DNA from: Nitrospirota bacterium
GTDB lineage: Bacteria > Nitrospirota > Thermodesulfovibrionia > UBA6902
Direction: 5' to 3'
Assembly (NCBI GenBank): GCA_016215115.1
Contig: JACRLN010000024.1
Coordinates: 35,337-99,336, forward strand
Length of the DNA stretch: 64,000 bases
Shown here: piece after piece, positions 44,727 through 56,309 of the stretch
Numbering within the stretch: position 1 is the first letter of the stretch
How the letters are laid out: every line of letters starts with the position of its first letter
Translations under genes and position numbers: made by a program
The notes under the pieces: generated by a model
Seen by the model: only the letters and a program-made list of their open reading frames with translations
The model's database searches: none
What the model was told of the DNA's origin: nothing

Positions 44727-44818
44727 GTAGGGGCGATCCGGTGGATCGCCCCTACGAGAGGACACAAAAAGGGCACGTCGCGACGTGCCCCTACAGGGCG
44801 TATGCCATACGCCCCTAC
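44727..44818. repeat. Family C palindromic (REP-like) repeats, three consecutive palindromes
   Basis: GTAGGGGCGATCCGGTGGATCGCCCCTAC, then the perfect palindrome GGCACGTCGCGACGTGCC, then GGGCGTATGCCATACGCCC. Followed at 44840-44880 by an 8-mer array (CTTTTGCA CTTCTGCT CTTTTGCA CTTTCGCG). Confidence 0.8.
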
Positions 44819-45358: not shown

Positions 45359-45426
45359 GGGCGATCCGGTGGATTGCCCAAGTGTGGTATCGGGGAAAAA
45401 AGGGCGACCCGCCGGGTCGACCCTAC
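45356..45426. repeat. Family C palindromic repeats (GTAGGGGCGATCCGGTGGATTGCCC ... GGGCGACCCGCCGGGTCGACCCTAC)
   Basis: Seen directly, downstream of the cupin gene. Confidence 0.75.
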
Positions 45427-45489: not shown

Positions 45490-46668
45490 TTAATGAAGCT
45501 CAGGCCAGGAAGCGGTCTGCTCTCTTACAGCAATCGCTATCTTGTAAAGAATTGTAAGCACTAAAAACCCTATGGACCATATACCGAGAGTGATCAACGC
45601 CTCTGGCAGTGATGGCCAGTACTCTGTCACCCGCTCGAACATATTCGGAACAAACCCGCCTACGACCAATCCAAAACCCTTGTCGATCCAGAGGGAGATG
45701 AAAACCGCTACACACGCGAACGCAAGCATATTCTCTTTCCTGCGCATGTTAGGATTCACCAGAATGATAAGCGATACAATTGCAAGGATAGTTGACATCC
45801 ACATTAACGGAACCAGTTTTGAGTATCCATCCAGACCGGCATACAGGTAAACGAACGGATGCATGTGACCCGGTATCTGGCTGTAGAACGCAGTGAAGAA
45901 CTCAAGTCCGAGAAGGAACACATTCGCAAACATTGCATAGGTGACTATCTTGCCCAGCGCCTGAATTGCCTCTTTGCCGGGATCAAATTTACTGACCTTC
46001 CTAACTATTAGACACAAGATAATAAGGAGCGCAGGCCCTGATGCAAAGGCTGATCCAAGAAACCGCGCTGCCATAACGGCTGTCAGCCAGAAATGTCTTC
46101 CGGGAAGTCCGGCATATAAGAATGCTGTTACTGTATGAATGCTGACTGCCCATGGAACAGACAGATATATCAGGGGCTTTACCCAATCCGGCGGCGGAAC
46201 TCCTTTACGGTCCGCGGTCAGAGTGGTCCAGCCGACTATTAAGTTAATAAAAAGATAACCGTTTAAGACCATTGCGTCCCAGAAGAGGATCGAGTTAGGG
46301 GTCGGATGCAGTATGACATTCATGACCCTCATAGGCTGGCCCAAATCAACAAAGATAAACAGGATACACATGGTAACGGCTGCTATGGCCAAAAATTCTC
46401 CAAGGATTACAACTTTCCCGAATGTCTTAAAATCATGCAGATAATACGGGATCACCAGCATTACTGCCGAAGCCGCGACCCCGACAAGGAACGTGAACTG
46501 GGAAATATAGAACCCCCAGGAAACATCCCTGCTCATCCCTGTGATACCAAGGCCGTAATCAAACTGACGGAGGTAATTGATAAAACCAACTCCGATAATA
46601 GCAAGCAAAATGAATATCCATGTCCAGTACCTTTTGCTGCCGGTAAGCGCTTTCTCAAGCATGTTCAT
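45490..46668 (-). CDS. dsrP: DsrP, NrfD/PsrC-family integral membrane subunit of the DsrMKJOP complex
   Basis: 392 aa, about 10 TM helices, NrfD-like. Last gene of the dsrMKJOP run. Confidence 0.75.
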   Translation of the reverse strand: MNMLEKALTGSKRYWTWIFILLAIIGVGFINYLRQFDYGLGITGMSRDVSWGFYISQFTFLVGVAASAVMLVIPYYLHDFKTFGKVVILGEFLAIAAVTMCILFIFVDLGQPMRVMNVILHPTPNSILFWDAMVLNGYLFINLIVGWTTLTADRKGVPPPDWVKPLIYLSVPWAVSIHTVTAFLYAGLPGRHFWLTAVMAARFLGSAFASGPALLIILCLIVRKVSKFDPGKEAIQALGKIVTYAMFANVFLLGLEFFTAFYSQIPGHMHPFVYLYAGLDGYSKLVPLMWMSTILAIVSLIILVNPNMRRKENMLAFACVAVFISLWIDKGFGLVVGGFVPNMFERVTEYWPSLPEALITLGIWSIGFLVLTILYKIAIAVREQTASWPELH

Positions 46669-47455
46669 TCCCTCCTATTACGTAGTAAACACTGGGACCA
46701 GACCCGATTTCAGGTTTACGTCTGATGGTATAATTAGCGCTGAGGACCTTCCTTACTTCTGAATTGGAATCTTCGAGATCGCCAAAGACCAGTGCGCCGT
46801 TGGATTTCTCTACACAGGCCGGTTTAAGTCCCCGTGCAAGTCTTTCTGAACAAAAGGTGCATTTCTCTACAACTCCCTTCATCCGGGTCGGGAATTCTTT
46901 ATTTTCTTCTTTTTCTTTGATGAAGGGTCTCGGGTCCCTCCAGTTAAAGCTCCTTGCACCAAACGGGCACGCCGCCATGCAGAAACGGCATCCGATACAG
47001 CGATGGTAATCCATTGCAACAATGCCGTCCGGCCTCTTGAATGTGGCCTTTGTGGGACATACCCTTACACAGGGTGGTTTTGCACAGTGGTTACAGAGCG
47101 CCAGAAAAGGTTTGTGTTTTATGCTCTCAGGTATAAATTCATCGGATACTCCGGGAAAGGTGTTCTCATATTCCTCTTCCCATATCCATTTTACTTCATC
47201 TTTCTTGTTGCCGATATCCGGTACATTATGAATGCTGTGACAGGCATGAATGATTTTCTCATAATCTTCTTTTGTCTTGATTTTACTGACATCAATAACC
47301 ATGGCCCATCTCTTTGCTGTGAGGGCTTCCGGTCCCGGCGAAACAGAGGCTTCAGCATTCGTCGTTAGTAACTCTTCAATAGCAGATGCGCCTGTTAATC
47401 CGAAAAGTGCGGAAGCGCCCGCAATTTTTAAGAATTTTCTCCTGTTTATACTCAT
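46655..47455 (-). CDS. dsrO: DsrO, periplasmic 4x[4Fe-4S] ferredoxin-like subunit with a Tat signal
   Basis: Tat motif (RRKFLKIAGASALFGLTGASA) and multiple CxxCxxC...CP clusters (CNHCAKPPCVRVCP, CIGCRFCMAACP, CTFCSERL). Confidence 0.8.
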   Translation of the reverse strand: MSINRRKFLKIAGASALFGLTGASAIEELLTTNAEASVSPGPEALTAKRWAMVIDVSKIKTKEDYEKIIHACHSIHNVPDIGNKKDEVKWIWEEEYENTFPGVSDEFIPESIKHKPFLALCNHCAKPPCVRVCPTKATFKRPDGIVAMDYHRCIGCRFCMAACPFGARSFNWRDPRPFIKEKEENKEFPTRMKGVVEKCTFCSERLARGLKPACVEKSNGALVFGDLEDSNSEVRKVLSANYTIRRKPEIGSGPSVYYVIGGNEHA

Positions 47456-47850
47456 ATCTCATTCTCCTTTGGTGGGATATGGCACGACCAGCAGTAAGGT
47501 TTTACATTTGCATAGTTGTGGCACTTGTCACAGAATTCCTTTTTGTTGGAATGACAGTGCATGCATGTATTCTGAAGGCTCATTATATATTTTTTTCCGC
47601 CCGTGCTTTCGTATACCAAATTTCCTTCGCGTATAACCAGATCTCTCCAGTTATCCAAAAGCTGCATGTGGTTGGCCCTCATATATTCTTTTGATTCCAC
47701 ACAGCGTTTTTCGACTAACTGTTTAATCACAGGGGTATCGAGTTTTGGTTCAGGCATGGCAGATGTTTTCCCCATGTTATAAAAAATGGGGAATGTAAAC
47801 AGACCGACAAATATGATAAGCCCTGCTATTATCTTTCCTCCGTTATACAT
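47452..47850 (-). CDS. dsrJ: DsrJ, membrane-anchored triheme cytochrome c
   Basis: N-terminal signal/anchor helix and three CxxCH motifs (CMHCH, CDKCH, CWSCH). 132 aa. Confidence 0.8.
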   Translation of the reverse strand: MYNGGKIIAGLIIFVGLFTFPIFYNMGKTSAMPEPKLDTPVIKQLVEKRCVESKEYMRANHMQLLDNWRDLVIREGNLVYESTGGKKYIMSLQNTCMHCHSNKKEFCDKCHNYANVKPYCWSCHIPPKENEI

Positions 47851-49460
47851 TATTCATTGCCCTCCATTCCGGGAAGAGGATCTCCTCGCAGATCTGTGGT
47901 CCTCTCTTTCTCGCCCTTCATAATCATTGCATTTGCTACGAGTTCGTGAACTCCCGTAACTTTTACGCCGGGGACCCAGTAATCCATCGAGGCCGTCAGC
48001 ACCGCCCTGTCGATCGCGCAGATATTTGCGAGCATATTGACGCCATATTTTTCCGCAACGTCTTTTACGGCATTGGCCCTTGGCAATCCCCCTCTCATTC
48101 TGATCTCCATGTTCTCACCTGCGTTCAGTCCTGAACCGCTTCCGCAGCAGAATGTCTTCTCTCTGGTTGTGAGCTCGTCCATTTCGTAGAAATGATTGCA
48201 TACGTTATTGATAATGTAACGGGGTTCTTCAAAGAGTCCCATGCCTCTTGCGGTATTGCAGGAATCATGGAAAGTCACCTTCAGGTTATCATTGCGTTTC
48301 GGGTCCAGTTTCAGTTTCCCGTTTTTAATAAGGTCCGCTGTAAATTCGGCAACGTGCACCATCTTGGTTGATTTTGTATTCTCAAATACCGTGCCGGTTA
48401 TTGGAGACTTCGGCACTTCAAGGAAATCTGCCGGGCCGTTCCATGTATCCATGTACTGGTTGAGGACCCTCCACATATGGCCGCATTCTCCGCCTAATAT
48501 CCACTTTACGCCGAGCCTCCTGGCTTCGGCATATATTTTAGTGTTCAACCGTTTTGCCAGCTCATTGGAAGTAAAGAACCCGAAGTTCCCGCCTTCCGAT
48601 GCGTATGTGCTCCATGTATAATCAAGCCCTAATTCATGGAAGAGCATAAGATATCCCATGCAGGTATAGGTCCCGGGATCCGCGAAAAGATCGCCGGAAG
48701 GTGTTACAAAAAGTATCTCGGCGCCTTTCCTGTTAAATGTCGGTTCAATCTTAATTCCGGTTACGGTTTCGATATCATCCAGCATATAACTCAGATTGCC
48801 CACAATCGTGTGGGGTTCAAGGCCGAGGTGATTGCCCTTCATATAACAATTTGCCGCAGGTCCGGATATCCAGTCAGTGTTTAAACCGAGCAGATTGAGC
48901 AGTTCCCTCCCCATCATAGTAATCTCGGCGGTATCAATCCCGTAAGGGCAAAATACCGAACAGCGGCGGCACTCGGTACACTGGAAGAAATAGTACCACC
49001 ACTCTTTAAGAACTGACAGTGTAAGCGGTCTTGCTCCGGCAATTTTTCCAAGTATCTTGCCCGCTGTTGTAAAATTGCCCCTGTAGACCGAACGGAGGAG
49101 TTCCGCCCTTAGAACCGGCATATTTTTTGGATCTCCGGAGCCGATAAAGAAGTGGCACTTATCTGCACAAGCTCCGCATCTTACACAGATATCCATGAAG
49201 ACTTTGAAAGAACGGTATTTATCAAGCCTCTCCCTCATACCCTGCAGAACTATTTCCTGCCAGTTTTCAGGCAGCTTCCAGTCCTCGTCCTGCACCCTCC
49301 ACTCTCTGGGATTCGGGAAGTGAAGTGTTTCAAGATTTTTCGGCTTTGCCCCATAGCACCAGTTGCCCTCTTTCAGTTCAGCGGGAGTGTCCATCCAGGC
49401 GCTTTGAGGCGGTGTGTAATTTATTTTGCTCAGTTCATCTGGTTTCGGTGTCTTTGCCAT
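47850..49460 (-). CDS. dsrK: DsrK, HdrD-like catalytic Fe-S subunit (CCG domains)
   Basis: N-terminal ferredoxin-like clusters (CVRCGACADKC, CTECRRCSVFCP) and a C-terminal CCG motif (FCCGSGSGLNAG). Confidence 0.85.
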   Translation of the reverse strand: MAKTPKPDELSKINYTPPQSAWMDTPAELKEGNWCYGAKPKNLETLHFPNPREWRVQDEDWKLPENWQEIVLQGMRERLDKYRSFKVFMDICVRCGACADKCHFFIGSGDPKNMPVLRAELLRSVYRGNFTTAGKILGKIAGARPLTLSVLKEWWYYFFQCTECRRCSVFCPYGIDTAEITMMGRELLNLLGLNTDWISGPAANCYMKGNHLGLEPHTIVGNLSYMLDDIETVTGIKIEPTFNRKGAEILFVTPSGDLFADPGTYTCMGYLMLFHELGLDYTWSTYASEGGNFGFFTSNELAKRLNTKIYAEARRLGVKWILGGECGHMWRVLNQYMDTWNGPADFLEVPKSPITGTVFENTKSTKMVHVAEFTADLIKNGKLKLDPKRNDNLKVTFHDSCNTARGMGLFEEPRYIINNVCNHFYEMDELTTREKTFCCGSGSGLNAGENMEIRMRGGLPRANAVKDVAEKYGVNMLANICAIDRAVLTASMDYWVPGVKVTGVHELVANAMIMKGEKERTTDLRGDPLPGMEGNE

Positions 49461-49462
49461 AT

Positions 49463-50455
49463 TTACTCCTTCTCAACTGGTAGTCCAGCGTTTTTCATTT
49501 TATCTCTGAATTCATCTTCATACTCTTGATACGTATGAACCTCAACCGGATAATTCCATGGATTAACATGCCTGACCATACGACTGTTATTGGGAAGATT
49601 CCGTGTCGGGCTGAGCAATACCCCTCCAAGATGCATTATCTTACTGTACGGAATATAAGCAATCAATGTGCTGACGAGTAACAGGTGGATATAAAATATA
49701 ACGCTTATTCCCTCAGGAATCTTGGTATTAAAAGTAACCAGCCCCATTGTCAAAGTTTTTATGCTGACCAAATCCACTCTCAGAAAATACCTCATCAGGA
49801 TGCCGGTAATGGCAATGCTCATAATAAGGAAAAGCGGGAAATAATCAGCGGCAAGAGAAATATAACGGACTTGCGGGACAAAAACCCTTCTCAGAAAAAG
49901 ATAGGTTACAGCTAATAGAAGAACTACCCCGCTTATCAGTACCCCGGGTATTCCTACTTGTAAAAATCCGTCAAGGGCCTCAACGTTCTTCAGAAAGGCA
50001 GGAACCGGTTCAGTAAATAGCCTTATATGTCTTACCAACACAATAAAAAACGACCAGTGGAACGCAAGGCCTCCCAGCCAAAGCCATTTTGTCGATCCGT
50101 AAGAGAGCTTCGGGCCTTCTCTTAATTCAAATTTTGTATTGCTGAAAAGGGATCGGAACAATAAAACTTCAAGGAGCATCCTTCCGACAACTCCAGAGGT
50201 TGTTGAGGGATTGTCAAGTTTGGACTGCTTAATCCATGGCAGGGACTGTTGCTGACCGCAGGTGGTTGGTATACAAAAAGGCACCGGCACGCGTCCCCAT
50301 TTCATGACGCGGGAAATTACTCCAATCAGAAAAACAATAATTGCAATATACGGAACAACTATCCCGAAGAGGAAATGAAGGTTTGCCCCCTTGACTCCTA
50401 TTAAAGGAATTAAAACAAGCCCTATAACAGCTATCAGGGAAAGAATGGCATTCAT
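49463..50455 (-). CDS. dsrM: DsrM, NarI/HdrE-like membrane dihaem cytochrome b
   Basis: 330 aa, 5-6 TM helices, conserved His residues in the helices. Immediately upstream of dsrK. Confidence 0.75.
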   Translation of the reverse strand: MNAILSLIAVIGLVLIPLIGVKGANLHFLFGIVVPYIAIIVFLIGVISRVMKWGRVPVPFCIPTTCGQQQSLPWIKQSKLDNPSTTSGVVGRMLLEVLLFRSLFSNTKFELREGPKLSYGSTKWLWLGGLAFHWSFFIVLVRHIRLFTEPVPAFLKNVEALDGFLQVGIPGVLISGVVLLLAVTYLFLRRVFVPQVRYISLAADYFPLFLIMSIAITGILMRYFLRVDLVSIKTLTMGLVTFNTKIPEGISVIFYIHLLLVSTLIAYIPYSKIMHLGGVLLSPTRNLPNNSRMVRHVNPWNYPVEVHTYQEYEDEFRDKMKNAGLPVEKE

Positions 50456-51021
50456 TTGGCTACCTCTTTTCTTTCAAATTGTATTATTTCATTATGGATG
50501 TCTTCATAGACACATTCCTTCTTGTATATCTCATCTGCCTTCTGCAATCTCCTGAAGGTCCAGCTTTGCAATTCATTTGCTTTTATCTGGTAAAGTTTTT
50601 CACGGCATTTCATGTAGATATCAAAGGCGAGGAGAGATATATCGTCTATTTTCAGCTCAAGCTCAAGCAGTTCAGTGTAAAGATTCTGTTCAATGAGTTC
50701 TTCTTTAATCTCTTCTCTGACCGCTTTTTTAAATAAAATGACAAAACTTATACATTGGGATGGGGTAAATTCCTGTACTGCCCGGATTCGAATAATATTG
50801 TCAAGGAACTGAGAAACCCCCTCCCTCTCACCACCAATAAGGATTTCATTATAGAGATTCTCAATTCCTTGGAATATCGTGCAACCCACAGGATTCAGAA
50901 ATGGGTTTTTCTGTTGTTTCAGGAAACCTGAAGTGTCAGATGGATAGGTGTTGAGGATGGCATCATACCATCTGTTCAAGACAGCAGACTTTTTCGCTGA
51001 TAGAAGGTTATTTAACTTCAT
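50452..51021 (-). CDS. hypothetical protein at the DsrT position (between dsrC and dsrM)
   Basis: 189 aa, soluble and alpha-helical. Translationally coupled to dsrM (4-bp overlap). The DsrT/RsbRD_N-like assignment is inference from position only. Confidence 0.4.
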   Translation of the reverse strand: MKLNNLLSAKKSAVLNRWYDAILNTYPSDTSGFLKQQKNPFLNPVGCTIFQGIENLYNEILIGGEREGVSQFLDNIIRIRAVQEFTPSQCISFVILFKKAVREEIKEELIEQNLYTELLELELKIDDISLLAFDIYMKCREKLYQIKANELQSWTFRRLQKADEIYKKECVYEDIHNEIIQFERKEVAK

Positions 51022-51114
51022 CTCGTGCCTCTATCTTACACAGGGCATTACAATCCTGTACCCTTCAGGTTTAAAGGTTCTTTAAAAAAGATTTTAATTA
51101 TTTAAAGGGTAATA

Positions 51115-51450
51115 TTATACGCAACCAGTCGGCTTTGGCAGCCCGGCATACCTACATGCCTGTTTTGCAGGACCTGCCGGATACAGTTCATAAAGATATT
51201 TTGTATTCCCCTTTTCCGGACCCATAACTTTTCCAATCTCTTTGGTAAGTATCTTAATCATTGGAGCTATCTGATATTTCGCAAAATAATCTCTGAGGAA
51301 TTTGATAACTTCCCAATGTGAATCAGTCAATTCAAGACCGTCATCCTGTGACATTTTCTTGGCAATGTTTTCATTCCATTCCTGCCAGTCCTGTAAATAT
51401 CCGTCCTCATCTACCTCATAGTTTTTCCCATCAACTTCTATAGTTGCCAT
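51115..51450 (-). CDS. dsrC: DsrC (TusE/DsrC family sulfur relay protein)
   Basis: 111 aa ending ...QACRYAGLPKPTGCV, the diagnostic DsrC C-terminal arm with two Cys 10 residues apart and penultimate Cys-Val. Confidence 0.9.
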   Translation of the reverse strand: MATIEVDGKNYEVDEDGYLQDWQEWNENIAKKMSQDDGLELTDSHWEVIKFLRDYFAKYQIAPMIKILTKEIGKVMGPEKGNTKYLYELYPAGPAKQACRYAGLPKPTGCV

Positions 51451-51591
51451 TTTTGTACTCCTTTCTTCTTAATGTATTTGGTATCTTCTATTTCAAACGG
51501 AAGATATTTGTAATGGTTAAACTGGAAAACAGGGTAAAACTATAATACATAACACTGTTACAGGTCAAATAAAAAAATCTTATAAAAACAT

Positions 51592-51924
51592 TTACAAATT
51601 TTTCAACCTCACAAAAATCAGCTTGCCTGTCCTTCCTCTTTTGTCCTCTCTTCTGCTTATTGTATTTGTATGAGTATCATAATCGAGCGTCTCCTCTTCA
51701 TAATCCTCCGGCATCAACGTTAATGCCTTATCAATATCGCCCTTGCATAAAAAAGTCAAAGCATCCAGACATATCTCTCCAAGGTTATGCCCTCTGCGGT
51801 CTAATACATACACTGCCCTGCATGTACATATGCCGCCGGTAATCTCAAGTGATTTAATACGAATGTCAACAGGGTTTGCCAGATAATTATCACAAAATGG
51901 ACATTGTAAAGGTTGTCTTCTCAT
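51592..51924 (-). CDS. small cysteine-containing hypothetical protein (CPFC ... CTC ... C...C)
   Basis: 110 aa with an N-terminal zinc-ribbon-like CPFCDN ... GGICTCRAV. Wedged between dsrN and dsrC, overlapping the dsrN stop. Confidence 0.4.
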   Translation of the reverse strand: MRRQPLQCPFCDNYLANPVDIRIKSLEITGGICTCRAVYVLDRRGHNLGEICLDALTFLCKGDIDKALTLMPEDYEEETLDYDTHTNTISRREDKRGRTGKLIFVRLKNL

Positions 51925-53546
51925 GGTTTTATCGAGGTATCCTTAAACTTCCTTGCACATCTCACCAACCCATCCGCCCATTCAGGCGCTCCAATTGCAT
52001 GAAGATGTGTATATGCAGCCAATACATTTTTGTAGCACATTCCGTCTTTGCCATCTACGATACCCTTCCCGCGTCTGACGTTGAATGCAAAATATATTTG
52101 CTCTGAAAATCCCCCTACATCCCCCATTGTAGGGGCGACCCGGCGAGTCGCCCCTACGGTTGAGAGGGGATCTATTTCAAGAACTCGCGAATAATGAAAC
52201 TCATGTCCCTTAAGAACGGTCTTATCGGGAAAGTATTGATTAGCTTTTTCAACCTCAACAATTGTATAACCATGCGCCTGCGGTTTTTTCTCAAGCCCAA
52301 AAGTTATCGGAAGGGCGCCAACCATCGGATATGTCTTGTTGCCTAAAACAAGACTTTTACCAAGATACATCAGCCCGCCGCATTCGGCATATACAGGAAG
52401 CCCGTCCTGAATTGCATCAAACAATGAATTCCTGAAACTTATATTATCAGCCAATGCTATCGCATGTGTTTCAGGGAAACCTCCGCCCATGTAAAGCGCG
52501 TCTATTTCGGGAAGTTTTGTTTCTCTCAGAGGGCTCACTTCGATCAGACTGGCTCCCCTTTTCTCAAGCTCTTCAAAATTCTCCTGGTAGTAAAATTGAA
52601 AAGCAGAATCTCGGATGATACCGATTTTGACTACGGAGCTGGAAGTTGGAGGTTGGGGGTTAGCTTGACCCTTGACACTAATCCCTAATCCCTTATCCCT
52701 TATCCCTGTCTCCAGAGGAGACGCTTCATTGGCAATTTTCAATACTTGATCGATATCAATATATTTCTCTCCTATGTCAGCAACTAATGCCAAAGATTCT
52801 TCAACGTCCTGCCGTTCCTGGAAAGGGGTTAAGCCCATATGCCTTTCAGGAAAAGGGTCTTTCTTTAATCTTGGGATGGCGCCCACCACAGGCAATTTAC
52901 ACCTTTTTTCTATTGCTTTTTTTATCAGGGTCTCCTGCCTGTTTGTCGCAATCTGGTTAAGAACGATACCACCTATTGCAACATCTGCATCCATCTGCTG
53001 GCATCCCAGGACCATTGCGGCAATTGTATTGGTTGCCTTTGTGCAGTCAACAATAATTATTACCGGAGTTTTTAATAATTTGGCCAGTTCAGCGGTGCTA
53101 TAAGTGCCCTCATCATCAACTCCGTCAAACAAGCCCCTATTACCTTCGATGATGGCAATCTGAGTGGAGAGTGGAGAGTTTGGAGTTAGGAGTTCGGATT
53201 CTTTGATTTTGGATTTCAGATTTCGAATTTCGGATCTCAATTCTGTCTTACTTTTGCACTTCTGCACTTTTGCACTTCTGTACTTATCATATGTATGCGA
53301 GATAAAAGACCCAAGCGCCTGCTCCGGCTTCATCATGAAGAGGTCCAGATTGTAACATGGAGTCCCGGCCGTCTTTGCAAGCCAGCCCGCGTCAATATAA
53401 TCAGGCCCTTTCTTAAAAGGTGTAACAAGCAAGCCTCTTTTTCTGAATAAAGAAACAAGACATAAAGAAAGGATAGTCTTTCCGCTCCCACCCCTGAGAC
53501 CGGAAACAACTATCCTTGGTATTGAGAAATTCTGTGATTGGGTCAT
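51921..53546 (-). CDS. dsrN: DsrN, cobyrinic acid a,c-diamide synthase (CbiA/CobB) homolog, putative sirohaem amidase
   Basis: P-loop (VVSGLRGGSGKT), a CobB/CbiA ATPase domain and a C-terminal class-I amidotransferase-like domain (GHEFHYS ... YTHLHAIG). Carries three in-frame repeat-derived segments (52107-52172, 52640-52720, 53160-53290). Confidence 0.8.
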   Translation of the reverse strand: MTQSQNFSIPRIVVSGLRGGSGKTILSLCLVSLFRKRGLLVTPFKKGPDYIDAGWLAKTAGTPCYNLDLFMMKPEQALGSFISHTYDKYRSAKVQKCKSKTELRSEIRNLKSKIKESELLTPNSPLSTQIAIIEGNRGLFDGVDDEGTYSTAELAKLLKTPVIIIVDCTKATNTIAAMVLGCQQMDADVAIGGIVLNQIATNRQETLIKKAIEKRCKLPVVGAIPRLKKDPFPERHMGLTPFQERQDVEESLALVADIGEKYIDIDQVLKIANEASPLETGIRDKGLGISVKGQANPQPPTSSSVVKIGIIRDSAFQFYYQENFEELEKRGASLIEVSPLRETKLPEIDALYMGGGFPETHAIALADNISFRNSLFDAIQDGLPVYAECGGLMYLGKSLVLGNKTYPMVGALPITFGLEKKPQAHGYTIVEVEKANQYFPDKTVLKGHEFHYSRVLEIDPLSTVGATRRVAPTMGDVGGFSEQIYFAFNVRRGKGIVDGKDGMCYKNVLAAYTHLHAIGAPEWADGLVRCARKFKDTSIKP

Positions 53547-53571
53547 TAATTAATTTAACAAAGGCGCACAA

Positions 53572-53670
53572 AAAATTTCCCCCCTTTAAAAAAGGGGGGC
53601 AAGGGGGGATTTTCAAGAAACATATTTTTCTCAAAATCTCCCCTAACCCCTCTTTGTCAAAGAGGGGCAT
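53572..53670. repeat. Family A MITE-like repeat, copy 3 (two tandem sub-units)
   Basis: AAAATTTCCCCCCTTTAAAAAAGGGGGGCAAGGGGGGATTTT ... AAAATCTCCCCTAACCCCTCTTTGTCAAAGAGGGG. Between dsrD and dsrN. Confidence 0.8.
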
Positions 53671-53697
53671 CAAGGCTTAATGACAAATTTTATGTAC

Positions 53698-53946
53698 TTA
53701 CTTAATAAGCCCTTTTTCTCTGAGGTATTCTTCGCTCGGAATTTCAACAGAGCTGGCGCCTCCGCCGTAAGAATACATGAGCCTTCCGACATCAATCATT
53801 CCCCTCAGGGCTTTTTTAACTGCATCAGGAGCCTCTGCTGTCTCCTCAGCGAGGGCCTTGATAACATCTTTTTCTTTGAGTTTTTTCTTACCCTTCATCT
53901 TTTCCATATAAGCGAAGATCTTGTCTTGTAATTCTGTTGTTTCCAT
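53698..53946 (-). CDS. dsrD: DsrD (small winged-helix protein of the reductive dsr operon)
   Basis: 82 aa, Lys-rich (MEKMKGKKKLKEKDVIKALAEE ... VKKALRGMIDVGRL), immediately downstream of dsrB. Confidence 0.8.
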   Translation of the reverse strand: METTELQDKIFAYMEKMKGKKKLKEKDVIKALAEETAEAPDAVKKALRGMIDVGRLMYSYGGGASSVEIPSEEYLREKGLIK

Positions 53947-53966
53947 ATCCTCACCTCTTTCTATTT

Positions 53967-54000
53967 TTTGTAGGGGCGACCCGCCGGGTCGCCCCTACAT
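53967..54000. repeat. Family C perfect palindrome TGTAGGGGCGACCCGCCGGGTCGCCCCTACA
   Basis: Seen directly between dsrB and dsrD. Confidence 0.85.
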
Positions 54001-54012
54001 GCCTGTGATTAA

Positions 54013-55089
54013 TTATCTTGAATACTTGAATGCTGCCGATGTCCTGAATGTATCTCTTGCGAAAGTGAAATCGTCAATATGCTGGAATGTGAACTCGATT
54101 CCGGTCAGATTGAAGAAGTCTTCCCATCCTATCCTCTCAATCCATTCGCCAACTCTTTCATGCTTCCTTGCATTTTTTGCATATACCTCAAGGATATTCT
54201 TTATTGCAGCAACAACCTTGGGCCATCTCGGCGGTTCATTGTAAAAGAACGGGATTGCCAGTTTCGAGAACTTCGGATTTGTTCTGAGACTGCCGATCTT
54301 TCCGCCCACCACTATCGCCACGCCATCTTCTTCCGGCTTGTGAATGTCAATCGGCGGACATACGGTGAAGCAGTTTCCGCAGTACATGCATTTATCCTCA
54401 TTGATTGTTACTGATTTGTCTTTCGGATTGGGTCTGATTGCCGATGTCGGACACGATGCGACTGTTGTCGGAATCTCACATACTTTAGGCACAAGTTCAT
54501 GATTGATTGTCGGCACTTTTCTGTGCACGGCAACTACAGCTATATCAGAACAGTGAACAGCGCCGCACATGTTAACGCAGCATGCAACTGCAAGCCTTAC
54601 TTTATTGGGCAGTTCTTTTGTTGTGAAATATTCATAGAGATCATCCATTATCGCCTTTACCAATCCTGAGGCATCGGTACAAGCGCTGTGGCAGTGTACC
54701 CATCCCTGTGTATGGACTACGTTACTGACTCTCGGTCCGATACCGCCAACTGAATATTTTTTTGCCTTCAGTTCTGCTACAAGAGGATCTACCTTGCTCT
54801 GGTCGGACACGAGAAATTCCACGTTGTTTCTTGTTGTGAAACGGAGGTATCCGTCACAGTATTTCTCTGACATATCGCAGATTTCACGGATAGTCTCGGT
54901 GCTTAAAATCCTTGGTGATGCAACCCTTACCGTATAAAGCTTATCGCCGCTTTCTGCAACATGCACCATTGTGCCGCCGCTCAAAACCTCATGATATTTC
55001 CATTTGCCGTAGTTTTTCTTTATTACAGGCGGTATAAACTGATCATATTTAGGTGGTCCAATATCTGTTTGTCTTTTTGGTAATGCCAT
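54013..55089 (-). CDS. dsrB: dissimilatory sulfite reductase beta subunit
   Basis: 358 aa. Sirohaem/[4Fe-4S] Cys motifs ([21 protein letters not shown]) and a ferredoxin-like insert ([10 protein letters not shown] ... [12 protein letters not shown]). Confidence 0.9.
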
Positions 55090-55124
55090 GTATTTATTCC
55101 TCCTATTTTTATTTTATTAATTAT

Positions 55125-56309
55125 TTATTTTTTGAAATCGCTTTCTGACCAGAAGAAGAACGGGTCTTTTCTCGGCTCTTTAACCTGCTGTGGCTGAGGC
55201 GGCACACCAATGTGCTCAAGGAAAGGCCTCAAGCCTTTTATTTCAAGAACCTCGCCGATTCTCTCTCTTGGTTTTGCGGTATCATCCCACCATTCAATCA
55301 TGCTGCGGATAAGGGTCTTCAATTCTGTGTATGGCGCCTCCACTTTTATAAATGGAACGATTACCCAGGAAAGCAATGAACCGACAACAATCGGAGCCTT
55401 ACTGCCAACAAGAAGGGTTGCGCCTTTTTCCTTACCTGGTCTTAGCGCCTTTGTCATCTTTGCTATACAATGCATGCACCTGTTGCATTGAACGTCATTA
55501 ATCTTGAGTGTCTTTCCATCGTAAGACATACATTCGGTAGGACACATGTCAATTATCTCTGCATTGATATTCATGCCTGAGTCTGCATACTTTTTCACTT
55601 CTGCCTGATCAATCTGGATATTGCCTTTCCAGGTACCGATGATGGACAGGTCTGCACGGGCAATAGCTGCAACGCAGTCAACTGCGCAGCCGGCTGTCTT
55701 GATTTTAAATTTATAAGGGAATGCCGGCCTGTGAAGTTCATCCTGGAATTCCTGTGTGAGTGCGTATGTAATATCAAGTGTGTCTATACAGGACCATTCG
55801 CAGCGGCCCGGGCCAACGCAGCAACTTGGGGTCCTCATTGCAGAACCTGAACCTCCGAGATCCCATCCGCGTGAAGAATACTCAGCAAAAATGGCTTCGA
55901 GATTTTCAGTCGTGGTCCCGAGAAGAACCAGGTCACCGGTGGAGCCATGCATATTTGTAAGTCCGCTTCCGTATTTATCCCAGATGTCGCAGATCATCTT
56001 TAATGCTTTTGCAGTATAGAAGAAACCGCTTGTCTGGTTAATTCTTACAGTATGAAACTGTGCAATACCGGGGAATTCTTCAGGTAAAGACGAATATCTG
56101 CCGATTACGCCGCCCCCGTAACCGAGAACGCCGACTATTCCGCCGTGTTTCCAGTATCCGCGTTTTGTCTTATACGATTTTTCAAGCTGGCCTAATTCAT
56201 CATCTGCCATTGAGCTTTTTTTCGCAGCCTTTTTTATTTCTGTAACGAAACTCGGCCACGGTCCTTTTTCAAGCTCGTCCAACATTGGTGTTTTATACTT
56301 CCCGCTCAT
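55125..56309 (-). CDS. dsrA: dissimilatory sulfite reductase alpha subunit
   Basis: 394 aa. Sulfite-reductase Cys motifs (PSCCVGPGRCEWSC, TAGCAVDCVAA) and a ferredoxin-like domain (CPTECM ... CNRCMHCIAKM). Confidence 0.9.
   Translation of the reverse strand: MSGKYKTPMLDELEKGPWPSFVTEIKKAAKKSSMADDELGQLEKSYKTKRGYWKHGGIVGVLGYGGGVIGRYSSLPEEFPGIAQFHTVRINQTSGFFYTAKALKMICDIWDKYGSGLTNMHGSTGDLVLLGTTTENLEAIFAEYSSRGWDLGGSGSAMRTPSCCVGPGRCEWSCIDTLDITYALTQEFQDELHRPAFPYKFKIKTAGCAVDCVAAIARADLSIIGTWKGNIQIDQAEVKKYADSGMNINAEIIDMCPTECMSYDGKTLKINDVQCNRCMHCIAKMTKALRPGKEKGATLLVGSKAPIVVGSLLSWVIVPFIKVEAPYTELKTLIRSMIEWWDDTAKPRERIGEVLEIKGLRPFLEHIGVPPQPQQVKEPRKDPFFFWSESDFKK

What the first reader, a model, noticed from the sequence alone, without database searches (positions are those of the whole stretch)
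51592..51924. Uncharacterised 110-aa Cys-rich protein inserted between dsrN and dsrC
The protein has a zinc-ribbon-like N-terminus (CPFC ... CTC) and two further Cys. Its 3' end overlaps the dsrN stop, and it is transcribed with the dsr genes. No canonical dsr component has this size or Cys pattern at this position. It could be a lineage-specific accessory or regulator of the DsrC/DsrN step.
Basis: inference. Interest (0 to 1): 0.5.

Follow-up and report, generated by a model that had tools for sequence, protein, structure and literature searches.

The report
Orphan Cys4 domain in dsr operon
The 110-aa gene between dsrN and dsrC is real and conserved: it is the free-standing form of a four-cysteine domain that in many other sulfate/sulfite reducers is fused to a HEAT-repeat protein ("DVU0298 family") encoded inside the dsr gene cluster, a widespread but unnamed and unstudied companion of the sulfite-reductase system.

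Summary
The ORF at 51592-51924 (minus strand, 110 aa) exists as described. Its ATG overlaps the dsrN stop (ATGA), and it evolves under purifying selection (dN/dS 0.12-0.18). It has more than 100 close homologs, almost all in Thermodesulfovibrionia/Nitrospirota MAGs. In 38 genome loci, dsrC lies downstream in 32 and dsrN upstream in 26.

It is not lineage-specific. A profile search finds the same roughly 110-aa domain, with invariant C8, C11, C33, C35 and G49. It stands alone in 69 cluster representatives and is fused to a roughly 210-aa HEAT-repeat domain (NCBIfam NF045662, "DVU0298 family protein") in 35. Fused versions sit inside dsr clusters of Thermodesulfovibrio yellowstonii-type genomes (exactly between dsrN and dsrC), Desulfofundulus, and MAGs labelled Deltaproteobacteria and Actinobacteria.

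Best reading: a metal-stabilised, non-catalytic binding module dedicated to the Dsr system (DsrN/DsrAB maturation or DsrC handling). Here it lacks its HEAT scaffold. The mechanism is inferred, not shown. It is a moderately interesting candidate for a new Dsr accessory protein.

The parts
51592..51924 (-). ORF110: 110-aa protein, the free-standing form of the Cys4 alpha+beta domain found in DVU0298-family proteins
   Evidence: ORF listing. 105 close homologs. Profile search gave 166 cluster representatives. dN/dS 0.12-0.18. AF2 mean pLDDT 84.7.
51892..51903 (-). First metal-binding knuckle, C8-P-F-C11
   Evidence: C8 and C11 are invariant in 58 diverse family members. Codons were checked.
51820..51828 (-). 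Second knuckle, C33-T-C35 (family motif GGxCxCGAVY)
   Evidence: C33 and C35 are invariant in both the close and the wide family.
51778..51801 (-). Conserved loop D42-R-R-G45-H46-N47-L-G49 in front of helix 48-59; a candidate ligand or partner contact site
   Evidence: G49 is invariant in alignment A3, and D42 and G45 are at least 90% conserved. The equivalent T-G-H-N-x-G is nearly invariant in the fused proteins. Secondary structure.
51745..51747 (-). C60, a fifth cysteine conserved only in part of the family
   Evidence: Invariant in 30 sequences and at least 90% conserved in 105 close homologs. Not conserved in the wide family.
51921..53546 (-). dsrN (CobB/CbiA-type amidotransferase). Its stop codon overlaps the ORF110 start (ATGA at 51921-51924).
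   Evidence: Pfam CbiA plus GATase_3 and NCBIfam CobB-like hits. Overlap read. The same overlap of the dsrN end with the start of the homolog is seen in distant relatives.
51115..51450 (-). dsrC, the gene immediately downstream
   Evidence: PF04358 E=3.7e-45 and TIGR03342. dsrC follows ORF110 in 32 of 38 related genome loci.
51451..51591 (-). ORF110-dsrC spacer. It holds a conserved promoter-like -35 TTGACC (51568-51563) and -10 TATAGT (51544-51539), an invariant inverted repeat TATCTTC-N11-GAAGATA (51482-51506), and the RBS GAAAGGAG.
   Evidence: Consensus scan. Six-genome alignment in which these elements are invariant. This suggests dsrC has its own promoter and ORF110 is the last gene of the dsrABDN unit.
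45490..56309 (-). Whole dsr cluster that carries the ORF: dsrA 55125-56309, dsrB 54013-55089, dsrD-like 53698-53946, dsrN, ORF110, dsrC, dsrT-like 50452-51021, dsrM 49463-50455, dsrK 47850-49460, dsrJ 47452-47850, dsrO 46655-47455, dsrP 45490-46668
   Evidence: ORFs. Pfam/NCBIfam for dsrC, dsrN, dsrT-like and dsrD-like. The arrangement is syntenic in related loci. The dsrA, dsrB and dsrMKJOP assignments were not scanned directly; they are inferred from ORF sizes, gene order, and the Pfam domains of the syntenic genes.

Best explanation
SHOWN:
- ORF110 is a genuine protein-coding gene at the end of the dsrABDN unit.
- Its product is the free-standing form of a roughly 110-residue domain with four invariant cysteines (CxxC...21 residues...CxC) and a conserved DxxGHNxG loop.
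- In other organisms carrying dsr genes, the same domain is the N-terminal (sometimes C-terminal) domain of 'DVU0298 family' HEAT-repeat proteins. These are encoded inside dsr clusters, in Thermodesulfovibrio exactly between dsrN and dsrC.
- In two relatives (L024, L027) the two domains are adjacent separate genes.
- In this window the HEAT gene is absent from all 64 kb.

INFERRED:
- The four cysteines hold one structural metal ion (most likely Zn) that staples a zinc-ribbon-like hairpin onto an alpha+beta body.
- The protein is non-catalytic. It works by binding a partner made from the same cluster.
- In fused relatives it tethers a HEAT (and often TPR) protein-interaction scaffold to that partner. 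Here it acts alone or with a scaffold encoded elsewhere.
- My preferred partner and process is maturation or assembly of the sulfite reductase system. This could be handing DsrN's product (amidated siroheme) to DsrAB, or chaperoning DsrC.

I put about 0.9 on the identity part. I put about 0.5 on 'Dsr-dedicated binding/assembly module'. I put about 0.25 each on the DsrN/DsrAB version and the DsrC version.
For: Gene reality:
- 105 homologs, dN/dS 0.12-0.18, AF2 pLDDT 84.7.

Linkage in close relatives:
- Of 38 genome loci, 32 have dsrC downstream, 26 have dsrN upstream, and 23 have both.
- When the cluster is split, the gene stays with dsrC (8 loci) or with dsrN (2 loci).

Linkage in distant relatives:
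- 8 of 11 contexts examined lie in dsr loci.
- The overlap of the homolog's start with the dsrN stop recurs at 27-43% identity.

Domain fusion in both orders:
- 31 representatives are N-fused and 4 are C-fused (three to a ~210-aa HEAT domain; the fourth, 201 aa, has no recognised partner domain), against 69 standalone.
- Sampled fused proteins score 133-180 bits against NF045662 (cut-off 75).

Fission intermediates:
- L024 and L027 carry a separate DVU0298 HEAT gene directly after the ORF110 homolog.

Conservation:
- Invariant C8, C11, C33, C35 and G49.
- Only sub-threshold zinc-ribbon hits in Pfam.

Scaffold character of the fused partner:
- The fused model has two domains joined by a disordered linker, and the C-terminal domain is a generic HEAT/ARM scaffold.
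- Recurrent neighbours are a ~205-aa TPR protein, a CxxCxxCC protein and a Zn_ribbon_8 protein.

Transcription units:
- dsrC has its own conserved promoter-like region, so ORF110 probably belongs to the dsrABDN unit.
Against: - No experiment or structure links this domain to any Dsr protein. The partner is guessed from gene order only.
- Three close homologs (L009, L015, L038) and three distant ones are not next to dsr genes within the DNA available.
- Metal binding and metal identity are untested. I could not inspect model coordinates to confirm that the four Cys converge.
- CobB/CbiA-type amidotransferases are not known to need partner proteins (general knowledge).
- The absence of a HEAT partner in the window could mean the free domain has a different role from the fused one.
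Confidence: 0.5

Rival explanations
1. Redox or sulfur-carrier protein. The Cys4 site binds Fe (rubredoxin-like) or a small Fe-S cluster, possibly together with C60. The protein passes electrons or sulfur to DsrC or DsrAB.
For: Four invariant cysteines. A fifth, C60, is conserved in the close family. The gene sits beside dsrC, whose function is cysteine-based. Small ferredoxin genes occur in several related dsr loci, so soluble carriers are common there.
Against: No match to rubredoxin, ferredoxin, IscA or any Fe-S family in Pfam or NCBIfam. The CxxC...CxC spacing on a beta-hairpin is typical of structural zinc ribbons. C60 is lost in many family members. Fusion partners are HEAT and TPR scaffolds, not redox domains.
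Confidence: 0.15
2. Regulator of dsr expression or activity. This would be a small zinc-ribbon protein that controls dsrC transcription or translation, or modulates DsrAB allosterically. It would be comparable in role to DsrR (post-transcriptional control in Allochromatium) or DsrD (allosteric activator).
For: The gene lies directly upstream of a conserved dsrC promoter-like region and an invariant inverted repeat in the dsrC leader. It has the same position as dsrR, the gene after dsrN in A. vinosum (from my own knowledge of the dsrABEFHCMKLJOPNRS order). It is small and has a zinc-ribbon-like N-terminus. DsrD sets a precedent (PMC8794893, listed).
Against: The protein is near-neutral (pI 6.7) with a strongly acidic stretch (PEDYEEETLDYD), which is unlike nucleic-acid binders. 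It has no HTH and no known regulator domain. It is not IscA/DsrR-like by sequence or fold. Fused relatives carry scaffolding repeats.
Confidence: 0.12
3. General-purpose small zinc-ribbon protein whose dsr linkage is historical, not functional.
For: Some homologs lie outside dsr clusters: next to UvrD-like helicase genes (L009, L015, L038), between argJ and def, or beside glycolytic genes.
Against: The linkage to dsr genes persists across very deep divergence, down to 27% identity, and across lineages carrying different phylum-level labels. Gene order otherwise varies. This is hard to explain without selection.
Confidence: 0.1
4. Functionless remnant left after the ancestral fused gene lost its HEAT half.
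For: The HEAT domain is missing from the window. Related genomes have fused or split versions at the same place.
Against: dN/dS is 0.12-0.18. More than 100 intact standalone homologs of constant length keep invariant Cys residues. Sixty-nine standalone cluster representatives exist in the wide family. The start overlap with dsrN is conserved.
Confidence: 0.03

Closest known systems
DVU0298 family protein (NCBIfam NF045662), e.g. the 324-aa Thermodesulfovibrio yellowstonii protein between dsrN and dsrC (P0386; by the locus-tag numbering in PMC5812927 Table 2 this should be THEYE_A0002) and Desulfofundulus thermobenzoicus WP_152947016.1
   Same: The N-terminal ~110 residues of these proteins are homologous to ORF110 over its full length: 27% identity to P0386, 43% to the Nitrospirae MAG protein P0384, and 38% to the Desulfofundulus protein. 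The four Cys and the GHNxG loop are the same. The genomic slot in dsr clusters is the same.
   Different: ORF110 lacks the ~210-aa HEAT-repeat domain on which the NCBIfam model is built; it has no NCBIfam hit. The family itself has no known function, and I found no literature on it.
DsrR (IscA-like protein encoded after dsrN in Allochromatium vinosum)
   Same: A small (~100 aa) protein encoded immediately after dsrN in a dsr operon (from my own knowledge of the A. vinosum operon). It is an accessory, non-catalytic protein.
DsrD (small winged-helix activator of DsrAB)
   Same: A small cytoplasmic accessory protein that is encoded in the dsr operon and characteristic of reductive-type clusters. 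It acts by binding rather than catalysis (PMC8794893).
   Different: Unrelated sequence and fold. A separate dsrD-like gene is present in the window at 53698-53946.
Generic zinc-ribbon / treble-clef Cys4 modules (e.g. Pfam Zn_ribbon_8/FmdB-type proteins that neighbour the fused genes)
   Same: An N-terminal CxxC knuckle plus a second Cys pair on a beta-hairpin. Family members give sub-threshold hits to several zinc-ribbon families.
   Different: The second knuckle is CxC, not CxxC. The ribbon is embedded in a larger alpha+beta domain that has no structural relative. No Pfam family reaches its threshold.

Membership tests
DVU0298 family protein (NCBIfam NF045662) | Match to the 213-position HEAT-repeat profile at or above the 75-bit cut-off | tested here: not met
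   ORF110 has no NCBIfam hit at E<=1. Fused relatives score 133-180 bits over their C-terminal (or N-terminal) 200 residues only.
DVU0298 family protein (NCBIfam NF045662) | Possession of the accessory Cys4 domain found in many members. This feature is not part of the NCBIfam model. | tested here: met
   A profile of ORF110 homologs hits residues ~1-120 of 31 representatives of about 270-580 aa and the C-terminus of 4. Pairwise E-values range from 2e-9 to 3e-22.
DVU0298 family protein (NCBIfam NF045662) | Genomic association with dsr genes | tested here: met
   In the window the gene lies between dsrN and dsrC. Fused members lie in dsr loci.
Zinc ribbon (Pfam zinc-ribbon families) | Two Cys knuckles (CxxC ... 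CxxC) on beta-hairpins, with a score above a family threshold | tested here: inconclusive
   CPFC is present, but the second pair is CxC. The best Pfam hit is DUF7501 at 16.1 bits against a cut-off of 27. Across 58 members there are only sub-threshold hits. The AF2 model places the Cys pairs on hairpins by secondary structure, but the coordinates could not be inspected.
Zinc ribbon (Pfam zinc-ribbon families) | Binds one Zn ion through the four Cys | not testable with these tools
   Needs metal analysis of purified protein.
DsrR / IscA-like (PF01521 Fe-S_biosyn) | Sequence match to the HesB/IscA family and the IscA beta-sandwich fold | tested here: not met
Rubredoxin / small Fe-S proteins | Match to rubredoxin or ferredoxin profiles; CxxC...CxxC with the rubredoxin knuckle context | tested here: not met
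   No such Pfam or NCBIfam hit for ORF110. The only related hit is a sub-threshold 'rubredoxin-like zinc ribbon' (zf-ChsH2) in 2 of 58 members.
DsrC/TusE (PF04358) | DsrC fold with a C-terminal conserved Cys arm | tested here: not met
   There is no hit for ORF110. The true dsrC is the next gene.

The most novel reading that the evidence does not exclude
The Cys4 domain (free, as here, or fused to the DVU0298 HEAT domain) may be the core of an unrecognised, widely distributed Dsr accessory module. Its recurrent TPR, CxxCxxCC and Zn_ribbon_8 neighbours may belong to the same module. The module would be needed to build or service the sulfite reductase, for example by inserting amidated siroheme made by DsrN into DsrAB, or by presenting DsrC to DsrAB or DsrK. 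ORF110 would then be a new 'Dsr' protein and the minimal client-binding part of that module.
Probability: 0.25. Interest if true: 0.7.

Novelty: new variant of a known kind. Interest (0 to 1): 0.48.

Why it matters
The dsr cluster is the central and most heavily studied gene set of the anaerobic sulfur cycle. Functions have been assigned only recently to some small accessory genes such as DsrD.

This family is conserved within dsr clusters of Nitrospirota, Firmicutes, and MAGs labelled Deltaproteobacteria and Actinobacteria. Yet it has no name, no domain model for its Cys4 part, no structural relative, and no mention in the dsr comparative-genomics papers I could search.

Recognising the 110-aa protein as the detachable half of the DVU0298-family proteins has three practical consequences:
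- It gives a concrete small target for testing what else the sulfite reductase system needs (cofactor insertion, DsrC handling or regulation).
- It offers an extra marker for dsr loci in metagenomes.
- It corrects 'hypothetical protein' annotations in more than 100 MAG proteins.

Tried and rejected
- Pfam and NCBIfam scans of ORF110 found no family. A Pfam scan of 58 diverse members found only sub-threshold zinc-ribbon noise.
- A PDB sequence profile search found nothing below E=1.
- The AFDB50 fold library was unavailable.
- The second word-indexed homolog search, run with the wide alignment, mostly re-found the close family.
- Literature searches for DVU0298, THEYE_A0002, and PBS lyase or HEAT repeat together with dsr terms found nothing relevant. 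The single 'DVU0298' hit is in a table of CO-dehydrogenase genes and does not concern this family.
- The Ca. Sulfobium paper tabulates dsrN and dsrC but skips the genes between them.
- Rfam on the region gave only sub-threshold chance hits.
- I looked for a HEAT, TPR, CxxCxxCC or Zn_ribbon_8 partner elsewhere in the 64-kb window and found none.
- The DsrR/IscA analogy was rejected on sequence and fold.
- The pseudogene or remnant idea was rejected on dN/dS.
- Plus-strand ORFs overlapping the region (51660-51842, 51743-51886) have no support and were ignored.

Full report
**1. The observation**

The minus-strand ORF 51592-51924 encodes the 110-aa protein MRRQPLQCPFCDNYL...FVRLKNL. Its ATG (51924-51922) overlaps the TGA of the upstream gene (51923-51921) as ATGA. 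So it is the 5' end of the ORF that overlaps dsrN, not its 3' end.

- The upstream gene is a CobB/CbiA-type amidotransferase, i.e. dsrN. The downstream gene is dsrC (PF04358, E=3.7e-45).
- The full minus-strand order is dsrA-dsrB-dsrD-dsrN-ORF110-dsrC-dsrT(RsbRD_N)-dsrMKJOP.
- The dsrA, dsrB and dsrMKJOP names were not scanned directly. They rest on ORF size, gene order and the Pfam domains of the syntenic genes.
- Cysteines are at residues 8, 11, 33, 35, 52 and 60.
- The ORF is not a chance frame. It has 105 homologs at 55-100% identity. Nei-Gojobori dN/dS against three relatives with unsaturated dS is 0.12-0.18. An AlphaFold2 model built on the family alignment has mean pLDDT 84.7 and pTM 0.77.

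**2. Conservation and synteny in close relatives**

A genome scan returned 38 loci. Almost all are Thermodesulfovibrionia/Nitrospirota MAGs, and a few are labelled Deferribacteres or Deltaproteobacteria. I mapped the window's Dsr proteins onto them.

- dsrC lies downstream in 32 loci, dsrN lies directly upstream in 26, and both are present in 23.
- Where the cluster is broken, the gene stays with dsrC (L001, L003, L006, L007, L008, L020, L021, L024) or with dsrN (L030, L036).
- In three loci (L009, L015, L038) it is not next to dsr genes.
- In the close family, C8, C11, C33, C35 and C60 are invariant or nearly so. C52 of the window protein is not conserved.

**3. The wider family**

A profile built from the 105 homologs was searched against 1.84 billion cluster representatives and found 166 of them.

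- Sixty-nine are standalone proteins of about 100-190 aa.
- Thirty-one carry the domain at the N-terminus of proteins of about 270-580 aa, and four carry it at the C-terminus. Three of those four are about 340 aa with an upstream HEAT region; the fourth (201 aa) has no recognised partner domain.
- In the fused proteins I scanned, the extra part is a HEAT-repeat domain. It matches NCBIfam NF045662 'DVU0298 family protein' at 133-180 bits against a cut-off of 75, sometimes followed by TPR repeats.
- NCBI names such proteins 'DVU0298 family protein' or 'PBS lyase' in Desulfofundulus, Desulfotomaculum, Desulfoscipio, Thermodesulfitimonas, Thermodesulfovibrio and many MAGs.
- Across 58 diverse members, only C8, C11, C33, C35 and G49 are invariant. 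P9, F10, A37, D42, G45, Y75, Y82 and F104 are at least 90% conserved.
- In an alignment of 52 fused proteins, the motif T-G-H-N-x-G after the second Cys pair is nearly invariant.

**4. Genomic context of distant members**

Eight of the eleven distant contexts examined are dsr loci.

- The T. yellowstonii-type 324-aa fused protein (P0386) lies exactly between dsrN and dsrC, and its start overlaps the dsrN end. Table 2 of PMC5812927 gives dsrN as THEYE_A0001 and dsrC as THEYE_A0003, leaving one unlisted gene between them.
- A Nitrospirae MAG (GCA_001803605.1) has dsrABD-dsrN-fused(350 aa)-dsrC-dsrT-MKJOP. Its N-domain is 43% identical to ORF110 (E=3e-22).
- Desulfofundulus thermobenzoicus has fdx-dsrA-dsrB-dsrD-TPR(208 aa)-Zn_ribbon_8(81 aa)-fused(370 aa)-dsrM-dsrK-dsrC-dsrN.
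- Similar arrangements occur in a MAG labelled Deltaproteobacteria, a MAG labelled Actinobacteria, and one further metagenomic contig. These also carry a recurrent CxxCxxCC protein.
- Two standalone homologs at only 34-35% identity precede dsrC in clusters that also carry dsrEFH. One lies between dsrN and dsrC. On the other contig the upstream gene runs off the end and has no Pfam annotation.
- Three contexts are not dsr-linked within the DNA available.
- In L024 and L027 a separate DVU0298-type HEAT gene follows the ORF110 homolog, before dsrC. In Ca. Sulfobium Nbg-4 the 1.3-kb gap between dsrN and dsrC holds two unlisted genes, which is consistent with the same split arrangement.
- The window itself has no HEAT, TPR, CxxCxxCC or Zn_ribbon_8 partner anywhere in its 64 kb.

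The simplest history is this. A fused or adjacent two-domain gene sat in the dsrN-dsrC slot, and this lineage retains only the Cys4 half at the locus.

**5. Structure**

- The ORF110 model has a short N-terminal strand region carrying CPFC. A beta-hairpin (19-32) ends in CxC. Then come a strand (38-42), the conserved loop, two helices (48-59, 64-69) and three strands (75-83, 88-90, 100-107).
- Pfam gives only sub-threshold zinc-ribbon hits.
- The model of the fused T. yellowstonii protein (pLDDT 87.3, pTM 0.64) shows the same N-domain. A disordered linker (108-116) joins it to a HEAT/ARM solenoid, whose best matches are generic scaffolds such as importins, the PP2A A subunit, YibA and MMS19.

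**6. Interpretation**

- Shown: ORF110 is a constrained, dsr-linked, free-standing copy of the Cys4 domain of DVU0298-family proteins.
- Inferred: the four invariant Cys bind a structural metal, and the domain is a binding module.
- Fusion in both orders to HEAT repeats points to a protein-protein scaffolding or assembly role rather than catalysis. So do the recurrent TPR neighbours.
- The recurrent start/stop overlap with dsrN favours a link to DsrN/DsrAB. So does the conserved dsrC-specific promoter-like region after ORF110. This would mean cofactor amidation or insertion.
- The persistence of the ORF110-dsrC adjacency when clusters split favours DsrC.
- I cannot separate these two versions with the tools available.
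- Rivals, with my confidence in each, are:
  - a redox Fe site (0.15);
  - a regulator analogous in role to DsrR or DsrD (0.12);
  - a general zinc-ribbon protein with historical linkage only (0.10);
  - a functionless remnant (0.03, contradicted by dN/dS).

**7. Comparison with known families, and novelty**

- ORF110 fails the defining test of the NCBIfam DVU0298 family, which is a match to the HEAT profile. It is, however, homologous to the un-modelled second domain of that family.
- It is not DsrR/IscA, rubredoxin, DsrC or DsrD.
- I found no paper that discusses the family. Large dsr synteny studies and the Ca. Sulfobium paper do not mention it.
- I therefore class it as a new variant (a domain-fission form) of a known but functionally uncharacterised kind.
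- Interest is moderate. This is not a surprise in mechanism, but it is a concrete, conserved, unnamed candidate Dsr accessory protein.

Noticed in passing
window 52132-52154 (inside dsrN), 53973-53995 (dsrB-dsrD spacer), 44730-44752, 45401-45423: A GC-rich perfect palindrome, GGGGCGACCCGSCGRGTCGCCCC, occurs four times in the window where none is expected by chance. One copy lies in frame inside dsrN, where it encodes ...STVGATRRVAPTMGDVGG... This stretch is an insertion relative to DsrN of related genomes. It looks like a REP/MITE-like element that is tolerated in a surface loop.
   Followed up: partly
window 51921-53546 (dsrN), residues ~78-120: The window DsrN (541 aa, against about 460-475 aa in several relatives) has a second lineage-variable insert of about 40 aa (KYRSAKVQKCKSKTELRSEIRNLKSKIKESELL...). 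A similar peptide (KRKRKTELKSEIRSPKSEI) occurs at a different site in the DsrN of L005. This suggests another repeat element that inserts into coding sequence.
   Followed up: partly
window 51451-51591 (minus strand): The ORF110-dsrC spacer is highly conserved across six genomes. It has an AT-rich stretch, an invariant -35 TTGACC, a -10 TATAGT, an invariant inverted repeat TATCTTC-N11-GAAGATA (51482-51506) in the dsrC leader, and the RBS GAAAGGAG. The repeat arms never vary, so an RNA hairpin cannot be told apart from a protein operator.
   Followed up: partly
L007 7496-7789, L008 1298-1597, L020 1822-2118, L021 7683-7979, L024 3488-3784: In loci where the dsrC half of the cluster is separated from dsrABDN, a conserved 98-aa protein with hydrophobic N- and C-terminal segments is encoded directly upstream of the ORF110 homolog. 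It is absent from the window.
   Followed up: partly
L039 7095-7982, L042 2696-2941 and 5485-6737, L043 6385-6999, L047 5719-5964 and 7299-8548: Fused DVU0298-family genes are repeatedly accompanied by three neighbours between dsrD and dsrMK: a ~205-aa TPR protein (32-65% identical between loci carrying different phylum-level labels), an 81-aa Zn_ribbon_8 protein, and a ~210-aa CxxCxxCC protein. This may be a larger unnamed dsr-associated module.
   Followed up: partly
window 53579-53599 (minus strand): A terminator-like hairpin, CCCCCCTTTTTTAAAGGGGGG followed by a T-run, lies between dsrD and dsrN. The same stretch gives several sub-threshold Rfam hits. It may attenuate read-through from dsrABD into dsrN-ORF110.
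   Followed up: no
L003, L006, L010, L011, L012, L016, L019, L026, L034: In these relatives the ORF110-dsrC pair is followed by a divergent dsrMK pair (36-46% identity to the window's DsrM and DsrK), with no dsrT or dsrJOP detected. This is a short DsrMK-type cluster within the same class.
   Followed up: no
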